From NCBI GenBank assembly GCA_963778805.1, contig CAVZVT010000005.1:293838-357837 (forward strand): a DNA stretch of 64,000 bases. The letters are read 5' to 3'. The notes under the pieces are model-generated. The model made no database searches, had not been told where the DNA came from, and was given only the letters and a program-made list of their open reading frames with translations. Positions 2,332-33,691 of this stretch are shown here, piece after piece (the first letter of the stretch is position 1; every line of letters starts with the position of its first letter). The position numbers and the translations under genes are program-made. This DNA comes from an uncultured Chloroflexia bacterium (GTDB lineage: Bacteria; Chloroflexota; Limnocylindria; Limnocylindrales; CSP1-4).

Positions 2332-5300
2332 ATGCCGTACAATCGGGACGTGCCCCAGGATCAGCTCGTCGTGCGCGGCGCGCGCGAACACAACCTCAAG
2401 AACGTCGATGTCGCGTTCCCGCGCGACCGGCTCGTGGTCATCACGGGCCTCTCGGGTTCGGGCAAGAGCAGCCTCGCCTTCGACACCATCTACGCCGAAG
2501 GCCAGCGTCGCTACGTCGAGAGCCTGAGCGCCTACGCCCGCCAGTTCCTCGGGCAGATGGAAAAGCCGGATGTCGACCAGATCGACGGACTGTCGCCGGC
2601 GATCTCCATCGACCAGAAGGGCGCCTCGCGGAACCCGCGGTCCACCGTCGGGACCGTCACCGAGATCTACGACCACCTGCGGCTGCTGTTCGCCCGGATC
2701 GGGATCCCGCACTGTCCCAACGGCCACGCGATCGAGCGGCAGAGCGTCCAGCAGATCGTGGACCAGGTCCTCGCCCTGCCGGAAGGGACCCGGCTGCTCG
2801 TGCTCGGCCCGCTCATCAAGGACCGCAAGACCGAGGGCGACCGCGTCTTCGATTCCGCGAGGCGGCAGGGCTTCGTCCGTGTCCGCGTCGACGGGGAGAT
2901 GGTCGACATCGCCGATGCGCCCAAGCTCGACAAGTACAAGCGCCATTCGATCGAGGTCGTGGTCGACCGCTACATCGTTCGCCATGCCGAGGCGCCTGAG
3001 GATTCGAAGCGGGCACCGGACGGCCGACCGATCGACCCCGAGACCGGCGAACCGATCCCGGATCCCGATGCCGGCCGGCTCGCGGACTCCGTGGAGACCG
3101 CCCTCCGACTCGGCGAGGGCGTGGTCCTCATCGCCCCCGCGCCGCGCGATGACGAGGCGCCGGCGTTCGAGGAGCAGCAATACAGCGAAAAGTACAGCTG
3201 CCCGTACGACGGGTTCACCGTCGAGGAACTCGAGCCGCGGACGTTCTCCTTCAACTCGCCGCACGGGGCATGCCCGTCGTGCGCCGGTCTCGGGACCCGG
3301 CTGGAGATCGACGAGGATCTCGTGGTCCCGGATCGATCGAAGAGCCTCCAGACCGGGGCGCTGGTGCCGTGGTCACGCCTCGCCACGGACGCATCGTGGC
3401 GGCTGAAGATCATCGAGGCGATCTGTAACGCCCACGGCTGGGATTTCAAGGCGCCGTTCCGCGACCTCCCCGAGGAGGCCGTCGAGTACATGCTCCGGGC
3501 CGCCAAGAGCGAGAAGGTGGTCGTCCGCTATCGCCACGAGCGAGGCGAGAACACGTACAACGCGACGTTCGAGGGCATCATCACCAACCTCGAGCGGCGG
3601 TACAAGGAAACGGACTCCGAGTTCATCAAGAACGAGCTCGAGCGGTACATGGTCAGCCGCCCATGCCCCACCTGCGGTGGCAAGCGGCTCCGCCCGGAGA
3701 TCCTGGCCGTCACGATCGGCGACCAGAACGTCTGGGACGTGTCGACCCTCTCGATCAAGGAGGCGCTTCGCTGGGCGAGCGGGCTCGGCGAGACGCTCAC
3801 CGAGCGGGAACGGACGATCGCGGTCCAGCTCCTCAAGGAGATCGTGGCGCGGCTCGGGTTCCTGGTGGATGTCGGGCTCGACTATCTGACGATGGATCGG
3901 ACGAGCGTGACGTTGTCCGGCGGGGAGGCCCAGCGGATCCGTCTCGCGACGCAGATCGGGACGACGCTGATGGGCGTCCTGTACATCCTCGACGAGCCCT
4001 CGATCGGTCTGCACCAGCGCGACAACGCGAAGCTCATCGCGACGCTCACGCGCCTGCGGGACCTGGGGAACACGGTCCTCGTCGTCGAGCACGATGAGGA
4101 GACCATCCGGACGGCGGACTGGGTCGTCGATATCGGGCCGGGGGCCGGCGAGCACGGTGGCGAGATCATCGCGAACGGGCCACTCGACGCGGTCCTCGCC
4201 GAGCCGCGTTCGATCACCGGGGCATTCCTGCGAGGGGAGCGGGCCGTGCCGATCCCGGCCAGGCGCCGGCATGGCAACGGCAAGGCACTCGTCGTCCGGG
4301 GGGCCCGCGAGCACAACCTCCAGAACGTGGACCTGCGGGTGCCGCTCGGGACGTTCGTCGCGGTGACGGGCGTGTCGGGGAGCGGCAAGAGCACGCTCGT
4401 GACCGAGGTGCTCTATCGAGCGCTGGCGCGAGAGCTCAACGGATCGCGTGAACCCGTGGGCGCGCACGATTCGCTCGACGGGGCGCAGCACATCGACAAG
4501 ATCATCGAGATCGACCAGAGCCCGATCGGCCGAACGCCGCGCTCCAACCCGGCGACCTACGTGGGGCTGTTCACCCCGATCCGCGAGTTGTTCGCGGGTG
4601 TCCCGGAGTCGCGCGTCCGTGGCTACACGCCGGGTCGGTTCAGCTTCAACGTCAAGGGCGGCCGCTGCGAGCACTGCAAGGGCGACGGGATCCTCAAGAT
4701 CGAGATGCAGTTCCTGCCGGACGTCTACGTCCCGTGCGAGGTCTGCAAGGGCAAGCGCTACAACCGCGAGGCGCTCGAGATCCACTACAAGGGCAAGTCG
4801 ATCGCGGACGTGCTCGAGCTGACCATCGCCGAGGCCCTCGAGTTCTTCGCGGCGGTGCCCAACGTGCGCGCCAAGCTCCAGACGCTCAACGACGTGGGGC
4901 TGGGGTACGTCCACCTCGGCCAGCCGGCGACGACCTTGTCCGGCGGCGAGGCCCAGCGGGTCAAGCTCTCGACCGAGCTGTCGCGGCGCGCGACGGGACG
5001 GACGCTGTACGTGCTCGACGAGCCCACGACCGGGCTCCACTTCGCCGACGTCGAGAAGCTGCTCGAAGTGCTCCACCGGCTCGTCGATGGCGGGAATACC
5101 GTCCTGGTCATCGAGCACAACCTCGATGTCATCAAGACGGCCGACTGGATCGTGGACCTCGGACCGGAAGGTGGCGACCGCGGTGGCCGGATCATCGCGG
5201 AGGGCACGCCGGAGACGGTGGCGGCCACCAAGGGGTCGGCCACGGCGGACTATCTCGACCGCGTCTTGCGCGGCGAGCCGCTCGTGCCGTTGTCCGACGT

Positions 5301-5412
5301 GACGTTCGCCGACGAGGCGGGCCGCGGCGTGCACACGAACGGCCACCAAAAGCCGGTCGCCCGGATCACGCCATCTCGCAAACGAGCCGCCGCCACGACC
5401 AAGGCCGGCTGA
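2332..5412 (+). CDS. uvrA: excinuclease ABC subunit A
   Basis: Two ABC ATPase modules with Walker [11 protein letters not shown] / [10 protein letters not shown], signature LSGGEAQR twice, and zinc-finger cysteines (CPYDG…[12 protein letters not shown]…CEVCKG); ~1030 aa. Confidence 0.95.
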
Positions 5413-5479
5413 CGGGGGGTCGGGCCCGGGCCGGCCCGCGGCCGCGGCCGAGCCCGGGTCCTCGGCCCGGCCCGCCGCA

Positions 5480-5822
5480 CCGCCCGTTCGAGTCTCTGGC
5501 GCCCAACCGCCCGTTCGAGTCACCCCACGACCGAACCGACCGCCGATCGCTGACCCGCCGTCGGCCCCGGCCGAGCCCGCCCGAGCCCGCCCCGACCGCC
5601 CGTTCGGTCACCCCACGACTCGAACCGACGCGAGCCGGAACGTCCTCGATCGGCACCCCGGTCCGGCCTGGACCGCCGCCAGCCCGCCCAGCCGCCCGTT
5701 CGGTCACCCCACGACCGAACCGACCAGTCCCGGACGGCCCCGATCTGCCCGCACTCGCCCCGGCCGGACACGCCGCCAAGCCCCGCCGCCCGTTCGGTCA
5801 GCCTCGGCACGACCGAACCGAC
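5480..5822. repeat. array of 4.5 copies of a ~34-bp palindromic repeat (CCGCCCGTTCGGTCACCCCACGACCGAACCGAC; stem GTTCGGTC / GACCGAAC), period 89-96 bp
   Basis: Copies at 5480-5494 (partial), 5507-5540, 5596-5629, 5692-5724 and 5786-5822; copies are imperfect and the 55-62-bp inter-repeat segments are GC-rich and partly similar to each other. Confidence 0.7.
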
Positions 5823-5834
5823 GCGAACCGAGCC

Positions 5835-6618
5835 TCATGACTGGCGGCACCTCACAGCACGACGATGCCGGATCCACCCGGGTGGCGCCCTGCGCCAAGG
5901 TCGCGCAGGCATCACGCGAGCTTGGATCGGAAAGACATCGCTCGAGCAACGACGCGGCGGATCGGAGGGCGTCTGCGATTTCGACGTGTGTCTGAGACAA
6001 GCAGCAGGACGTGCTCCGCTCCCTCCGTCGCGGGCCTTGAGCGTGATCCGTCGGACTTGCGCCTGAAGGTCGATGAGTCTCGTCTCGGCCTCCACCGGAA
6101 GCCCGTCCATGATCGGCCTCGCTATCGCACCAGCCCGCCGATGCAGGCGTCCCATGCTCGTTGATCGCCGGGGATCCCGTAGTGGGACCTCCATCCGGAA
6201 GGTCAGCTCCGGCATGCGAGCCGCTGCCGGAGTCGATCCAGCAGGGCGATCTGCGCGGCGTCCCGGATCGGGTCCGGACCGGGATATGCTCGGACCCGAA
6301 CATCGAGGCCGACCGCTGAACCGAGCCTCGCGAGCTGGTCGACGCTCGCCGTCGCGAAGGCGGCCCGCTCGATCCGACCTGCCTGCGATCGGCGACAGCC
6401 CGGCCGTCGCCGCCAACGTGGACCTGGGAGCGACCAAGGATCATTCGAGCACCGCGGATCTCGTCCGCCGACTCGTAGCAGATCCGCCCGCGCGAGTCGC
6501 CGACCACGGTCGATCGGTCGCTCTCGGGTCGCCCATCCGTGCAGTGTCGCTCGACCTCACGTATCTGCGGCCAAACCGCGGCTTCGCGCCCAGCGGGACC
6601 CGAGGCCAGGTCGAGCAA
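5835..6618 (-). pseudogene. decayed or frameshifted ORF of unknown function on the minus strand
   Basis: Protein-like reading (high GC3) switches between three minus-strand frames (6618→~6400, ~6400→6230, 6437→5835); no recognisable domain; local GC is lower than surrounding genes. Confidence 0.3.
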
Positions 6619-6704
6619 GTGCGGCCAGGTCGGGTAAGGCGGCTCGGCGACATCGATCCCGACCGTACCCGCGGGCGGCCTCGGCCAGGGGCTAGCATAG
6701 GAAT

Positions 6705-7523
6705 GTGCCGGATATCGACTTCGCCTTTCTCGCGGACGCCGCCGAGACGATCCCGGGGCAGAAGTTCCATGTGCTTGGCGGCGGGATCGCGCGGATCGGC
6801 GGGAAGCGGTTCCCGCTGCGACATCCGCATCTCGCGCTGGTGATCGGCCTCCAGGTCACGGCCCCCGAGACCGAGCGGGAACACGAGGTCCGCTTCGTCC
6901 TGCTCGACCCTGATGGCGCCGAAGTGGCCGGTGCCACGGGGAGCCTCGTCGCGCGGAGCCAGCGCGATGGTCGCGACGCGACGCTGACCTTCTCGATCGA
7001 CCTGTGGAACCTGACCTTCCCGTCGCCAGGCGACTACTCGTTCCGGATCCTCGTCAACGGGTCGGAGCGCAAGCGACTCCCGCTCCTGCTGCTCGCCCCG
7101 CCTGACGATGCGACGGCGCAGGGGGGCAAGTCGGTCACGCGCCCAGCCGATGACTGAGATCACGGGACGATCGACGTCGGCGCGTCGGGGTCGTCGACAT
7201 CGGCATCTCCGGCCGGGCGCACGACCGCGCGTCACGAGCGACCCGTCATCGATGCGCTCGGGCTCGAGGCAGCTCGGCACGGCGACCGACTGCTCGCGGA
7301 AGCGCACGCGATCGGTGCCACCCGGTGGGCGACCTACCTCGAACCGCTGCCGGATCGCCTTCGCGACGACGAGCCCGCCGCTCTTCGCCGAACGGCGATG
7401 CGGGCACGATCCGCCTACGGCCCGAAGGACTCCGTCCGGGATGCGCTGCCGGAGTCGCTCACGGAACCGTTCCTGGACTCGATCGACCGACTGCTGCGGG
7501 AGCTCAATCGAACCAGGGCATGA
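6705..7523 (+). CDS. hypothetical protein; a 150-aa ORF (6705-7157) ends at TGA 7155-7157 and the same frame continues coding-like to 7523
   Basis: A TAGCAT -10-like hexamer lies 15 nt upstream; GC3 stays high in frame after the TGA (…VIDALGLEAARHGDRLLAEAHAIGATRWATYLEPLPDRL…) with no alternative start codon downstream. Confidence 0.4.
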
Positions 7524-7663
7524 GGGCCGGTCGCTAGGCCTTGAAGGCCAGTCGCGGGCCAGAGCGACCCCGAAGGCCGGTCGCTGGCCACAGGGCGACC
7601 CCGAAGGCCGGTCGCTGGCCACAGGGCGACCCCAGAAAGCCACTCGCTGGCCAGCCCGAATCC
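7524..7663. repeat. 31-bp tandem repeat block (4 units, 2 perfect: CCGAAGGCCGGTCGCTGGCCACAGGGCGACC) between convergent gene ends; each unit holds a short inverted repeat
   Basis: Perfect units at 7570-7600 and 7601-7631, degenerate units at 7539-7569 and 7632-7663, and a partial unit at 7524-7538. Confidence 0.7.
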
Positions 7664-7664
7664 T

Positions 7665-9173
7665 CTAGGACGTCGGCGGGGTGGGGCTCGGTGGCGTGAA
7701 CGTCGATGCCTGGGCCATCAGATCGGCGACCTGGGTGCTCGCGGCGTAGGCCGCCTCACCGGCGGTGCCACTGGTCTGGATGGTCATCGTCCCGCCGGCG
7801 CCGTAGTCGATGATGTACGAGTAGAGCGTCGTCCCGACGGGCGTGCCGCTGTCGGCCGTGGTCGATGTCGCCTCGACGAGCGTCGCCTGCAGGCCTGACA
7901 CGGTCGCCTCGGCCGACTGGATCACGTTCCAGTTCGCGGGGTCCGTCGCCGCTGCGACGGCGTCGTCATACGAGGCCACATCCGGCTTCACGGTGATCGC
8001 CGCGTCCGGTGCGCTGCCGTCGGACGGCACGCTGATGGGGTTCGGATCGAAGTACTGGCAGGCGGCGGCGGGCGGCTCGGAGAGCGTGTGCCAGGCCGCC
8101 GGGTAGGCGATGGACGCCAACGGCACGCCACTCGGGCTCTCGATCGCGCAGCTGGACTGCGGCGGAACCGAAGGAAGCGGCGGCAGGGTCGGGGCGGGTG
8201 TCGGCTTGGGCGTGGGTGACGGTGTCGGCTTGGATGTGGGTGCCGGCGTGTCCGAGGGCTTCGGCGTCTCCGACGGCTTCGCGGATTCCCCGGCCGAGGG
8301 CTTCGGCGTCGCGGTCGGCTTGGGCGTGGGTGACGGGGTCGGCTTGGGCGTCGGCGTGGCGCTCGGGATCGGCGGCACGGAAGCCTCGGCCTCCGCCTCG
8401 TCTGCGGCTCGCGGCTTCGTCATCGCCACGATCACCTCGGAGTTCCGGTCACGCAGGACCACGGCGAGCCCACGGCGCTCGATGAAGGCCGCTCCCTGGA
8501 GCGCATCGAGGAACTCGGACTCCTGGGTCATCACATCGTCGGCGCACGTCTGTCGCGTGGTCGCGAGCCGGCTGATCTTCACGATCGTGCCGTTGGTCCC
8601 GTAGACACCGTCGTAGGTGTTGCAGCCGCTCGAGCCGCCGACGTTGGTGATGCCGAAGACGGCGGTCAGCTCGGTGCCGCTGATGGGGATGGTCTGTGAT
8701 CCGGGCGAGGTCGCGAAGGAGTCGACGTTCCATGCACCCAGGAGGGGGTTCGCGGGGGCCGCGTCGAAGACCAGGAGCACCTGTCCGCCGGCTCCGAAGA
8801 TCGTGAGCGTATCGGCTCGGACCCCGAAGAACCGGCTGTCGTGCAGGACGGAGAGGTAGGTCGATTCGAAGGTCATCTCGGCGTCGGCGCAGGCCTTCTG
8901 CGTGGCATGGACCTGGGAGATCAGCAGCGTCCGGCCGCTCGCCCGGGCGATCGCGCCGTAGTCGTTGCAGCCGGCGAACCCGTCGACGCGGTTGCCCGTG
9001 AACTTGGCGTCCGCGTACAGCGCCTCGGGGACGATCTCAAGCGTCCCGCCATTGGCGTACGAACGGAGTACCCAGTTCGTGCCCTCGATCTCGCCGCCGG
9101 ATCCGCCACCGGGCGAACAGGCGACGACGCCGAGGACGAGGCCGATCAGGACCGCGAGTCGCCGGATACGCAT
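7665..9173 (-). CDS. secreted lipoprotein with two tandem META (HslJ-like/DUF306) domains, a Pro/Thr-rich linker and a C-terminal domain
   Basis: Lipobox LVLGVVAC; the motif GCNxY/GxY…T(M/Q)xAC appears twice; the linker [19 protein letters not shown] is encoded by repetitive DNA at 8190-8400. Confidence 0.7.
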
Positions 9174-28438: not shown

Positions 28439-28525
28439 GCCGAGGTGGCGGAATAGGCAGACGCGCTGGTTTCAGGTACCAGTGGCCGCAAGGTCGTGTG
28501 GGTTCAAGTCCCTCCCTCGGTACCA
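28439..28525 (+). tRNA. tRNA-Leu (anticodon CAG)
   Basis: Cloverleaf with acceptor GCCGAGG/CCTCGGT, anticodon loop TTCAGGT, a long variable arm and an encoded CCA. Confidence 0.85.
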
Positions 28526-28557
28526 CTCTCCCTCCGGACCCGACAAAGGCGACACCT

Positions 28558-28642
28558 GCCCAGGTGGCGGAATTGGTATACGCGTACGTTTGAGGGGCGT
28601 ATGAGGCAACTCATCCGGGTTCAAGTCCCGGCCTGGGCACCA
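28558..28642 (+). tRNA. tRNA-Leu (anticodon GAG)
   Basis: Acceptor GCCCAGG/CCTGGGC, anticodon loop TTGAGGG, a long variable arm and an encoded CCA. Confidence 0.8.
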
Positions 28643-28695
28643 ATCCATCGATCGATCTGACGACCGTCCGACAGGGCGGTCGTCATACTGTCCGT

Positions 28696-28772
<77 letters not shown>

Positions 28773-32207: not shown

Positions 32208-32283
32208 GCCGAGATAGCTCAGTTGGTAGAGCACGCGACTGAAAATCGCGGTGTCGCCAGTTCGAATCTGGCTCTCGGCACCA
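32208..32283 (+). tRNA. tRNA-Phe (anticodon GAA)
   Basis: Acceptor GCCGAGA/TCTCGGC, anticodon loop CTGAAAA, and CCA. Confidence 0.85.
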
Positions 32284-32309
32284 TCACTTCGGTGATCGGG
32301 CACACACGG

Positions 32310-32385
32310 GCGGAAGTGGCTCAGTTGGTAGAGCATCACCTTGCCAAGGTGAGGGTCGCGGGTTCGAGTCCCGTCTTCCGCTCCA
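32310..32385 (+). tRNA. tRNA-Gly (anticodon GCC)
   Basis: Acceptor GCGGAAG/CTTCCGC, anticodon stem TCACC/GGTGA with loop TTGCCAA, and CCA. Confidence 0.85.
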
Positions 32386-32405
32386 TTCCCTTTCCTATGG
32401 ACCGC

Positions 32406-32479
32406 TGCCCCTTCGTCTAGTGGTAGGACAGCGGACTTTGAATCCGTGAACCGAGGTTCGAACCCTCGAGGGGCAGCCA
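32406..32479 (+). tRNA. tRNA-Gln (anticodon TTG)
   Basis: Acceptor TGCCCCT/AGGGGCA, anticodon loop CTTTGAA, and CCA. Confidence 0.75.
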
Positions 32480-32487
32480 ACAACATC

Positions 32488-32564
32488 GGCGACGTGGTGA
32501 AGTGGTTCAACACGGAGGTCTGCAAAACCTCTATTCACCGGTTCGAATCCGGTCGTCGCCTCCA
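32488..32564 (+). tRNA. tRNA-Cys (anticodon GCA)
   Basis: Acceptor GGCGACG/CGTCGCC, anticodon loop CTGCAAA, and CCA. Confidence 0.75.
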
Positions 32565-33605: not shown

Positions 33606-33691
33606 GCCGGAGTGGCGGAACGGCAGACGCAGCGGACTTAAACTCCGCGGCCCGCAAGGGCGTCCGAGTTCGAATCTCGGCTCCGGCACCA
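33606..33691 (+). tRNA. tRNA-Leu (anticodon TAA)
   Basis: Acceptor GCCGGAG/CTCCGGC, anticodon stem GCGGA/TCCGC with loop CTTAAAC, a long variable arm and CCA. Confidence 0.85.

What the first reader, a model, noticed from the sequence alone, without database searches (positions are those of the whole stretch)
5480..5822. Array of 4.5 hairpin-forming ~34-bp repeats with ~90-96-bp period downstream of uvrA
The unit CCGCCCGTTCGGTCACCCCACGACCGAACCGAC contains a perfect 8-bp inverted repeat (GTTCGGTC-N7-GACCGAAC). It recurs at 5507, 5596, 5692 and 5786, with a half copy at 5480. Repeat length and spacing fall within CRISPR ranges. However the copies are imperfect, the inter-repeat segments share the tails ...GCCGCCA(A)GCCCGCC, and there are no cas genes. 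It therefore behaves more like a degenerate ~93-bp tandem repeat carrying a palindrome. Possible roles are REP-like intergenic hairpins, a repeated operator for a dimeric DNA-binding protein, or the processed-repeat region of a small RNA locus.
Basis: seen in the sequence. Interest (0 to 1): 0.55.

Follow-up and report, generated by a model that had tools for sequence, protein, structure and literature searches.

The report
Dispersed hairpin repeats beside dead nuclease gene
The repeat array after uvrA is one copy of a family of small hairpin-forming repeats scattered between genes in uncultured Limnocylindria-type Chloroflexota, and it lies next to a decayed gene for a previously undescribed DNA-binding nuclease that in relatives is flanked by the same repeats, a pairing that recalls REP elements and their transposase but uses a different enzyme.

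Summary
There are four full copies and one half copy of CCGCCC-GTTCGGTC-ACCCCAC-GACCGAAC-CGAC at 5480-5822, with a period of 88-98 bp.

It is not a CRISPR array and it is not a local oddity. The same 23-nt hairpin core occurs in tandem arrays with periods of 51-100 bp in at least seven other intergenic contexts in related genomes and metagenomes: TypA, PanB|PanC, PurA|PurD, AldDH|LeuD, SecD, DUF885 and uvrA. Copy number varies between near-identical contigs. Between relatives the hairpin cores stay 91% identical, while the spacers fall to 48%.

Most relatives have uvrA directly followed by a DUF6941 gene. The window, L120 and L128 carry a roughly 1.3-kb insertion there, made of array(s) plus a minus-strand gene for a 220-aa protein. 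That protein has an XRE-type HTH domain and a PD-(D/E)XK nuclease fold and matches no curated family. In the window this gene is a pseudogene. Intact homologues sit in a different genomic context in each genome, and in three of four independently fetched cases they are flanked by family hairpins.

Best reading: a REP/BIME-like extragenic palindrome family partnered with a non-HUH nuclease. The copy in this window is a decaying relic. The partnership and its mechanism are inferred, not shown.

The parts
5480..5822 (.). Whole tandem array of hairpin units: 4 full copies plus 1 left-arm-only copy
   Evidence: The covariance model R1 hits at 5509, 5598, 5694 and 5788 with 34-50 bits. The next best hit in the window scores 16 bits.
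5480..5506 (+). Half copy: the left flank and left arm (CCGCCCGTTCGAGTC) followed by unrelated bases
   Evidence: It does not form the family hairpin.
5507..5540 (+). Copy 1, with a bulged A in the left arm
   Evidence: R1 scores it 44.4 bits.
5596..5629 (+). Copy 2, with a bulged T in the right arm, complementary to the extra A of copy 1
   Evidence: (I8/I9). R1 scores it 44.5 bits.
5692..5724 (+). Copy 3, the perfect consensus unit: GTTCGGTC-ACCCCAC-GACCGAAC
   Evidence: R1 scores it 50.4 bits.
5786..5822 (+). Copy 4, with the loop expanded to 11 nt
   Evidence: R1 scores it 34.4 bits.
5855..6535 (-). Pseudogene of the HTH (XRE-type) + PD-(D/E)XK nuclease-fold protein. Its 3' end lies 33 bp from copy 4.
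   Evidence: tblastn with the L120 protein parts gives E 1e-41 (N-terminal part) and 2e-15 (C-terminal part), spread over frames -2, -1 and -2 with an in-frame stop. There is no GC3 coding signal. The two longest minus-strand ORFs that overlap it have no Pfam hit.
5413..6704 (.). Insertion (array plus pseudogene) relative to relatives in which uvrA is followed within ~30 bp by the DUF6941 gene
   Evidence: L121, L130 and L132 have the uvrA stop followed by the DUF6941 start after 28-30 bp. L120 and L128/L127 carry the insertion.
2332..5412 (+). uvrA, the left boundary gene
   Evidence: Pfam and homologues.
6705..7157 (+). DUF6941 gene, the right boundary gene
   Evidence: Pfam PF22091, E 3.7e-23.

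Best explanation
**What it is.** The array is one locus of a lineage-specific family of dispersed extragenic palindromic repeats in uncultured Limnocylindria-type Chloroflexota. It works like the REP/BIME elements of proteobacteria.

**The unit.** Each unit holds a 23-nt core, GTTCGGTC-ACCCCAC-GACCGAAC. A 3-bp outer stem extends it. The whole unit pairs best on the strand opposite to the one the finding quotes, which is the window minus strand. There it reads GUUCGGUCG-UGGGG-UGACCGAAC.

**How it behaves.** Units sit in intergenic DNA as short direct tandem arrays. Their period is specific to each array, and they gain and lose units by slippage or unequal recombination.

**What is in this window.** The array belongs to a ~1.3-kb insertion between uvrA and a DUF6941 gene. 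The insertion also carries a gene for a ~220-aa protein made of an XRE-type HTH domain and a PD-(D/E)XK nuclease domain.

**Inferred mechanism.** This protein recognises the folded or extruded palindrome and cuts at or near it. Cutting and repair then spread the repeats, the gene, or both. That is the same logic as the REP-RAYT partnership, but with a restriction-endonuclease-fold enzyme instead of an HUH tyrosine transposase.

**State of this copy.** The nuclease gene in the window is dead and the four copies are imperfect. This array is most likely a decaying relic. Its only remaining effect, if any, would be as a hairpin block between the convergent 3' ends of uvrA and the pseudogene.

**Shown:** the family exists, it is dispersed, copy number varies, cores are conserved over spacers, the locus is an insertion, the protein has this fold, and the gene and repeats are adjacent.

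**Inferred:** that the protein acts on the repeats, that the substrate is single-stranded DNA or a cruciform, and that the local copy is functionless.
For: **The family is dispersed.**
- An exact 23-nt core search found 8 metagenome contigs.
- The closest UvrA relative, L120, has 3 copies in the same place after uvrA, a second array upstream of secD, and a single copy at 6612.
- Flanking genes were identified by Pfam as TypA/BipA, PanB|PanC, AldDH|LeuD-like, PurA|PurD and DUF885.
- R1 scores family copies at 28-50 bits. The best score is 24.7 bits in 721 kb of control loci that were themselves chosen to match the flanks. There is nothing in L121, L130-L132 or L144.

**Copy number varies.** There are 2, 3 and 4 units at the same PanB|PanC locus in three metagenomes. 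After uvrA there are 4.5 units in the window, 3 in L120 and 2 in L128.

**Cores are conserved over spacers.** Between the window and L120, cores are 64/70 identical and spacers 68/142.

**The locus is an insertion.** See (uvrA next to DUF6941) against (insertion present).

**The protein.**
- Pfam finds HTH_31.
- The AlphaFold model has pLDDT 90.
- E120, D133, Q161 and K170 are invariant, and E152 and E154 nearly so.

**The gene and the repeats are adjacent.**
- In L128 the gene has arrays on both sides.
- In L133-L142 related hairpin repeats lie on both sides.
- In L145 ~150-bp direct repeats carrying a hairpin lie on both sides.
- In L143 two inverted hairpins follow the stop codon and carry the compensated change GGTC/GACC to GATC/GATC.
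- The gene sits in a different genomic context in each genome.

**Strand asymmetry.** 92.7% of stem cells pair on the minus-type strand against 79.9% on the other. There are 42 G.U cells against 5. The outer pair switches between GC (10 copies) and CG (8 copies). RNA folding energy is -18.7 against -12.4 kcal/mol.

**The gene is a pseudogene.**
Against: - No whole genome of this lineage could be scanned, so copies per genome are unknown. The 64-kb window holds only this one array.
- The gene-repeat association rests on about four independent contexts. One of them (L144) shows no hairpins, and one (P0186) returned no DNA.
- Covariation in the inner stem is almost absent: one pair, in two sequences from one locus. 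The structure is therefore supported mainly by conservation and by the strand asymmetry, and the asymmetry is dominated by a few inherited positions.
- XRE-type HTH domains normally bind duplex DNA as regulators.
- The nuclease activity rests on fold similarity and conserved residues alone.
- Solitary arrays inside co-directional gene pairs have their better-pairing strand antisense to the genes. No simple model accounts for this.
Confidence: 0.6

Rival explanations
1. The repeats are an independent REP- or MIRU-like family that spreads by some other means. The HTH-nuclease gene is a separate selfish, homing-type gene that uses the repeats as its landing or cleavage site. On this reading the repeats are its target, not its product.
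For: Solitary arrays without the gene outnumber arrays with it. Where both flanks carry repeats they are in direct orientation, as if the gene had dropped into an existing array (L128; L133; L145). PD-(D/E)XK homing endonucleases are an established class; I state this from my own knowledge and did not test it here.
Against: The available data cannot separate this from the main explanation. No empty array was seen at a site that is gene-occupied in a close relative. Relatives without the gene at the uvrA locus also lack the array.
Confidence: 0.2
2. The palindromes are duplex operators for the XRE-type protein, or for another dimeric regulator. The arrays would then mark its regulon and its autoregulation.
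For: An HTH_31 protein is encoded beside the arrays. The 8-N7-8 inverted repeat looks like a two-half-site operator. The compensated GGTC/GACC to GATC/GATC change fits a palindromic operator as well as it fits a hairpin.
Against: Arrays lie mostly at 3' ends and between convergent genes, where there is no promoter (uvrA|HTH gene, AldDH|LeuD, after TypA). The loop sequence is as conserved as the arms. One-sided stem changes are strongly biased toward G.U on one strand, which a duplex site does not predict. The protein carries a conserved nuclease-fold domain. The 2-5 tandem units with variable periods are unlike operators.
Confidence: 0.08
3. The units act only as RNA: as 3'-end stabilisers or insulators of flanking mRNAs, or as a repeated small-RNA locus.
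For: The hairpins are stable as RNA (-12 to -19 kcal/mol). Many arrays follow a gene's stop codon. REP elements are reported to affect mRNA turnover (abstract of PMC3479197).
Against: There is no Rfam family and no T-run terminator or promoter consensus. In the PanB>PanC and PurA>PurD contexts the better-pairing strand is antisense to the genes. An RNA role does not explain dispersal, the variable periods or the link with the nuclease gene.
Confidence: 0.08
4. It is an orphan or degenerate CRISPR array.
For: Repeat length (~33 nt) and period (61-98 bp) fall within CRISPR ranges, and the repeat is palindromic.
Against: Spacers within an array are homologous to each other: nearly identical in L124-L128 and alignable in the window. 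Arrays hold 2-5 units and are scattered between housekeeping genes. None of the roughly 25 largest genes of the window is a cas gene. The repeats carry indels.
Confidence: 0.01

Closest known systems
REP / BIME / REPIN elements with their RAYT transposase (Enterobacteria, Pseudomonas)
   Same: Both are short imperfect palindromes confined to extragenic DNA and dispersed over many loci, often just after stop codons and sometimes in ordered tandem clusters. A small associated gene is flanked by the repeats, and each gene variant goes with its own repeat variant. These features of REP/RAYT are as described in PMC3337134. L133 and L143 also show inverted doublets like REPINs.
   Different: The flanked gene encodes an HTH + PD-(D/E)XK fold protein, not an HUH/Y1 transposase. 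There is no conserved GTAG-type 5' tetranucleotide; the flank here is GCCC or CCCC. Most arrays are direct tandem repeats with array-specific spacers rather than inverted pairs. The host is Chloroflexota. Whether the gene is single-copy per genome is unknown.
MIRU-type intergenic minisatellites (VNTR) of mycobacteria
   Same: Both have tandem units of 50-100 bp in intergenic regions of housekeeping operons, at several loci, with copy number differing between close relatives.
   Different: The periods (51, 61, 71, 88, 96, 98) are mostly not multiples of 3 and carry no small ORFs. The conserved part is a hairpin core rather than the whole unit. There is a link with a nuclease gene. The MIRU features used for comparison come from my own knowledge.
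Integron attC sites / CALIN clusters
   Same: Both are imperfect palindromes that are thought to fold on one strand only, and genes can be bracketed by them.
   Different: The arms do not fit the RYYYAAC / GTTRRRY boxes; position 4 is C/G instead of R/Y. Units are 7-nt-loop hairpins rather than 57-141-bp sites. Most units have no cassette ORF between them. No integrase is among the genes examined. The attC consensus comes from my own knowledge.
XisH-like, NucS, Hjc and Cas4-type PD-(D/E)XK nucleases (for the neighbouring protein)
   Different: There is no sequence-level family match in Pfam, NCBIfam, PADLOC, PHROGs or PDB. The protein is fused to an XRE-type HTH domain, and activity is untested.

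Membership tests
CRISPR array | Unique, unrelated spacers between near-identical repeats | tested here: not met
   Spacers within arrays are homologous to each other. The repeats carry indels.
CRISPR array | cas genes nearby, or the same repeat next to a cas locus | tested here: not met
   The roughly 25 largest genes of the 64-kb window are housekeeping genes. The neighbours of 8 other arrays are housekeeping genes. Small ORFs were not scanned.
REP/BIME (REPIN-RAYT) | Short (20-40 nt) imperfect palindrome able to form a stem-loop | tested here: met
   The unit has an 8-9 bp stem plus a 3-bp outer stem.
REP/BIME (REPIN-RAYT) | Extragenic and dispersed at many loci | tested here: met
   At least 8 distinct intergenic contexts across related genomes, and 3 sites within 23 kb of L120. 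The count within a single genome could not be measured, and the window holds only one array.
REP/BIME (REPIN-RAYT) | Associated HUH/Y1 (IS200-like) RAYT gene flanked by the repeats | tested here: not met
   The gene flanked by the repeats is HTH_31 + PD-(D/E)XK fold. No Y1_Tnp domain was found in any protein examined.
REP/BIME (REPIN-RAYT) | Inverted REP doublets (REPINs) | tested here: inconclusive
   Inverted pairs occur in L133 and L143. The window and most other arrays are direct tandem repeats.
MIRU/VNTR minisatellite | Tandem intergenic units with copy-number polymorphism between close relatives | tested here: met
   2, 3 and 4 units at PanB|PanC, and 4.5, 3 and 2 units after uvrA.
MIRU/VNTR minisatellite | Units carrying in-frame small ORFs coupled to the flanking genes | tested here: not met
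   The periods 88, 96, 98, 61 and 71 do not preserve the reading frame. There is no coding signal.
Intrinsic terminator | G+C-rich stem followed by a T-run | tested here: not met
   No terminator-like sites were found in 5200-6900.
Any Rfam RNA family | Match to a covariance model at or near its gathering score | tested here: not met
   No hit in the region even at E <= 10, apart from a chance 13-bit match elsewhere.
Integron attC / CALIN | R''/R' boxes RYYYAAC...GTTRRRY, 57-141 bp sites, an IntI integrase | tested here: not met
   The arms read GTTCGGT and ACCGAAC, which misfit at box position 4. There is no integrase among the examined genes. No dedicated attC model was run.
PD-(D/E)XK nuclease superfamily (neighbouring protein) | Restriction-endonuclease-like alpha/beta fold with conserved acidic and Lys residues | tested here: met

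The most novel reading that the evidence does not exclude
The ~220-aa HTH + PD-(D/E)XK proteins form a family of at least 425 clusters at 50% identity, known only from metagenomes and annotated merely as 'XRE-family regulator'. On the most novel reading they are a new class of repeat-associated nucleases. They would create, maintain or move a family of hairpin repeats by acting on one folded DNA strand or on an extruded cruciform. That would be a second, mechanistically independent invention of the REP-RAYT relationship.
Probability: 0.35. Interest if true: 0.8.

Novelty: new variant of a known kind. Interest (0 to 1): 0.6.

Why it matters
Extragenic palindrome families are well understood only in proteobacteria, where one enzyme type (the HUH RAYT transposase) explains them.

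This family is comparable in behaviour but occurs in an uncultured soil and freshwater Chloroflexota lineage. It is tied to a nuclease of a different fold that no curated family covers.

If the link is functional, it shows that genomes can acquire self-propagating hairpin repeats by more than one enzymatic route. It would also assign a role to several hundred protein clusters now labelled 'transcriptional regulator'.

There is a practical side too. The repeats vary in copy number between strains, so they could serve as strain markers, and they probably break short-read assemblies of these organisms.

Tried and rejected
1. **Genome-contig scan with a loose pattern.** I used CCGCCCGTTCG-N8-24-CGAACCGAC. 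All were chance matches except L056.
2. **Exact look-up of the window's UvrA**, with two alternative start codons: not on record. The source contig is therefore unidentified. The lineage is inferred from UvrA and HTH-protein homologues named Candidatus Limnocylindrales or Chloroflexota.
3. **Rfam**, at gathering threshold and at E <= 10: nothing.
4. **Viral contigs.** No hit for the core or for the protein family. The plasmid and phage collections gave no hit for the protein.
5. **A coding reading of the repeat** (PPVRSPHDRTD...). Rejected because the periods do not preserve the frame and there is no GC3 signal.
6. **Global folding of the 500-nt region** is no better than shuffles. Only the unit hairpins are significant.
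7. **Inner-stem covariation** is too weak to prove structure.
8. **GC skew** gave no replication direction.
9. **P0186 context** returned no DNA.
10. **The short-contig pattern.** Most contigs carrying the gene are only 1-2.5 kb long. I do not use this as evidence of repetitiveness, because the median contig in the collection is itself about 1 kb.

Full report
**1. The observation.**
The sequence at 5480-5822 is as described. CCGCCCGTTCG begins at 5480, 5507, 5596, 5692 and 5786. Tandem Repeats Finder reports one array, 5502-5822, with period 96, 3.4 copies, 78% matches and score 274. The repeat finder reports four 44-nt copies spaced 88, 96 and 98 bp apart. A degenerate hairpin pattern matches four times in 64 kb, all inside the array, against 0.02 expected.

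Only copy 3 is the perfect GTTCGGTC-N7-GACCGAAC. Copy 1 has an extra A in the left arm, copy 2 has the complementary extra T in the right arm, copy 4 has an 11-nt loop, and the piece at 5480 is a left arm only. The segments between hairpins are only loosely alike. The 500-nt region as a whole does not fold better than shuffles, but the individual units do.

The ORF ending at 5412 is uvrA. There is no coding signal from 5413 to about 6650 and no Rfam match.

**2. Whose genome this is.**
The window's UvrA is not on record. Its best homologues are 91% identical and come from metagenome assemblies. The named homologues are Candidatus Limnocylindrales. The window has 69% G+C and is otherwise filled with housekeeping genes: UvrC, SecD, RecJ, TatC, RapZ, TIM, IleRS, PriA, Rpe and RecG. 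None of the genes examined is a cas gene, a transposase or an integrase.

**3. The unit is a dispersed family.**
- The closest relative, L120, has three copies of the identical core directly after its uvrA stop. It also has a second array of a longer-stem variant (GTTCGGTCAC-CGG-GTGGCTGAAC) in front of secD and a single copy at 6612.
- An exact search for the 23-nt core in metagenome contigs found eight contigs.
- With L056 from the genome scan, the arrays lie after TypA/BipA, between PanB and PanC, between an aldehyde dehydrogenase and a LeuD-like gene, between PurA and PurD, and near a DUF885 gene.
- The periods are specific to each array (51, 61, 71, about 85-100 bp), and units within an array are nearly identical including their 'spacers'. 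This rules out CRISPR.
- A covariance model built from 23 copies scores family members at 28-50 bits. Its best score is 24.7 bits in 721 kb of control loci that had been selected to match the flanks. It finds nothing in L121, L130-L132 or L144. In the window it finds only the four known copies; the next best hit is 16 bits.

**4. Dynamics and constraint.**
The PanB|PanC locus has 2, 3 or 4 units in three metagenomes with otherwise near-identical flanks. The uvrA locus has 4.5, 3 and 2 units in the window, L120 and L128. Between the window and L120, hairpin cores are 64/70 identical while the intervening spacers are 68/142 identical, about what alignment of unrelated G+C-rich DNA gives. The window lacks the secD array of L120; its uvrC and secD are 40 bp apart.

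**5. The array is part of an insertion that carries a gene.**
In L121, L130 and L132 the uvrA stop is followed within about 30 bp by a DUF6941 gene, and there are no hairpins anywhere in the 14-23 kb fetched for each of these loci. The window, L120 and L128/L127 instead carry about 1.3 kb between these genes, made of hairpin array(s) plus a minus-strand gene. In L128 the gene (2027-2716, 229 aa) is intact and has arrays on both sides.

In the window the homologous stretch (about 5855-6535, minus strand) matches at E 1e-41 and 2e-15. The match is spread over three reading-frame segments and contains an in-frame stop. The adjacent 3.1-kb uvrA is intact, so this is decay rather than assembly noise. 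L120's copy is also split, but that assembly has many split genes, so its state says nothing.

**6. The protein.**
- Pfam sees only HTH_31 at residues 27-87. NCBIfam, PADLOC, PHROGs and PDB sequence searches add nothing for the C-terminal half.
- An alignment of 30 homologues shows invariant E120, D133, Q161, R165, R166 and K170, and nearly invariant E152 and E154.
- The AlphaFold model is confident (pLDDT 90).
- The family is sizeable: 281 hits in the word-indexed search, and 425 clusters at 50% identity at E <= 1e-30. All come from metagenomes and are named only as XRE-family regulators. The family is absent from the plasmid, phage and IMG/VR collections.

**7. Gene-repeat association.**
Homologues fetched by protein alone sit in a different neighbourhood each time: ParA-like, transaldolase, amidohydrolase, ABC2/FtsH, and one other.
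- In L133-L142 the gene is flanked on both sides by a composite repeat. The repeat contains hairpins that R1 recognises at 29-33 bits.
- In L145 it is bracketed by ~150-bp direct repeats containing GTCAC-CGC-GTGAC-CGAAC.
- In L143 two family hairpins in inverted orientation follow the stop codon. Both carry the compensated change GGTC/GACC to GATC/GATC.
- L144 shows none.

Background density is roughly one site per 20-60 kb (window, L120, L143). Three of four independent contexts with a family hairpin within a few hundred bp is therefore far above chance. My estimate is P of about 1e-3. The sample is small.

**8. Structure and strand.**
Inner-stem covariation is minimal. When the model is extended by a 3-bp outer stem, the outermost pair switches between GC (10 copies) and CG (8 copies). 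92.7% of cells pair on the strand with the G-rich loop, which is the window minus strand and the sense strand of the nuclease gene. Only 79.9% pair on the other strand. There are 42 G.U cells against 5.

RNA energies agree: -18.7 against -12.4 kcal/mol for the perfect copy, and -20.0 against -9.6 for the secD variant. This points to one folded strand mattering. However, in the PanB>PanC and PurA>PurD contexts that strand is antisense to the genes, which speaks against a simple role in cis on the mRNA. A folded single DNA strand or an extruded cruciform fits better. That is inference, and the asymmetry is dominated by a few inherited positions.

**9. Interpretation.**
The array works like a REP/BIME element: a short palindrome family living in extragenic DNA, forming small tandem clusters, and partnered with a small gene that is itself flanked by the repeats and whose variants go with repeat variants. 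These are the features listed for REP/RAYT in PMC3337134.

It is not a member of that family. The partner is not an HUH/Y1 transposase, there is no GTAG-type flank, and most arrays are direct rather than inverted repeats.

I commit to the following model. The HTH domain positions the protein on the palindrome. The PD-(D/E)XK domain cuts the folded or extruded form. Repair or recombination then spreads or resizes the arrays.

My confidence differs by claim:
- about 0.9 that this is a dispersed extragenic palindrome family;
- about 0.55 that the nuclease gene is functionally tied to it;
- about 0.35 that the protein is the agent that propagates the repeats.

In this window the gene is dead and all but one copy are imperfect, so the local array is probably a relic.

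**10. Rivals.**
- *The gene targets pre-existing repeats (homing).* The present data cannot separate this from the main model.
- *Duplex operators.* Disfavoured by the position of arrays at 3' ends and in convergent gaps, by loop conservation, by the strand bias and by the nuclease domain.
- *An RNA-only role.* Lacks Rfam, promoter or terminator support and does not explain dispersal.
- *CRISPR.* Excluded.
- *Integron attC sites.* Do not fit the box consensus, and no integrase was seen.

**11. Limits.**
No complete genome was examined, so copies per genome, orientation relative to replication, and gene copy number remain unknown. All functional statements about the protein rest on fold and conservation.

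Noticed in passing
window 7543-7653: A second, unrelated tandem repeat. Its 31-bp unit GAAGGCCGGTCGCTGGCCACAGGGCGACCCC occurs 3.6 times, and each unit has its own 6-bp hairpin (GGTCGC-N10-GCGACC). It lies in the convergent gap before the META-domain gene (7665-9173, minus strand). It was not found in any fetched locus.
   Followed up: partly
window 5507-5629 (copies 1 and 2) and 5480-5506: The half copy and copy 1 carry an extra A in the left arm, and copy 2 carries the complementary extra T in the right arm. This looks like one compensated variant hairpin split by recombination inside the loop, or like pairing across units (I8/I9).
   Followed up: no
window 5421-5475: A G+C-rich imperfect palindrome lies directly after the uvrA stop, with arms 5427-5447 and 5454-5474 that are 81% complementary. 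It is separate from the repeat family and may be the real 3' end structure of uvrA.
   Followed up: no
L120 19953-20158 (minus orientation): Three copies of a longer-stem subfamily with a 10-bp stem and 3-nt loop sit between a 163-aa gene and secD. On one strand both variant positions are G.U pairs, and on the other they are A.C mismatches. The window has no array at this site.
   Followed up: partly
L056 3372-3560 (Chloroflexi bacterium CF_46, VBFG01000043): An array with a 51-bp period and a different loop (GTTCGG-GCGCCGGACGA-CCGAAC) lies between purA and purD. It has the same CCGCCC...CGAC flanks as the window. This is the shortest period seen.
   Followed up: partly
L133 1431-1876 and 2656-2840: A composite 229-bp repeat unit holds several hairpins in alternating orientation on both sides of the HTH-nuclease gene. 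A further G-rich 17-63-bp repeat lies downstream at 2823-2976.
   Followed up: partly
window 28439-28772, 32208-32564, 33606-33691: Eight tRNA genes lie in three groups: Leu, Leu, Val; Phe, Gly, Gln, Cys; and Leu.
   Followed up: no
window 8197-8366: Several overlapping 12-24-bp tandem repeats lie inside the META-domain protein gene, probably a repetitive low-complexity protein segment.
   Followed up: no
protein family P0121-P0415: Most contigs carrying the HTH-nuclease gene are only 1-2.5 kb long. This could mean that assemblies break at the flanking repeats. It could equally just reflect the short median contig length of the collection.
   Followed up: no
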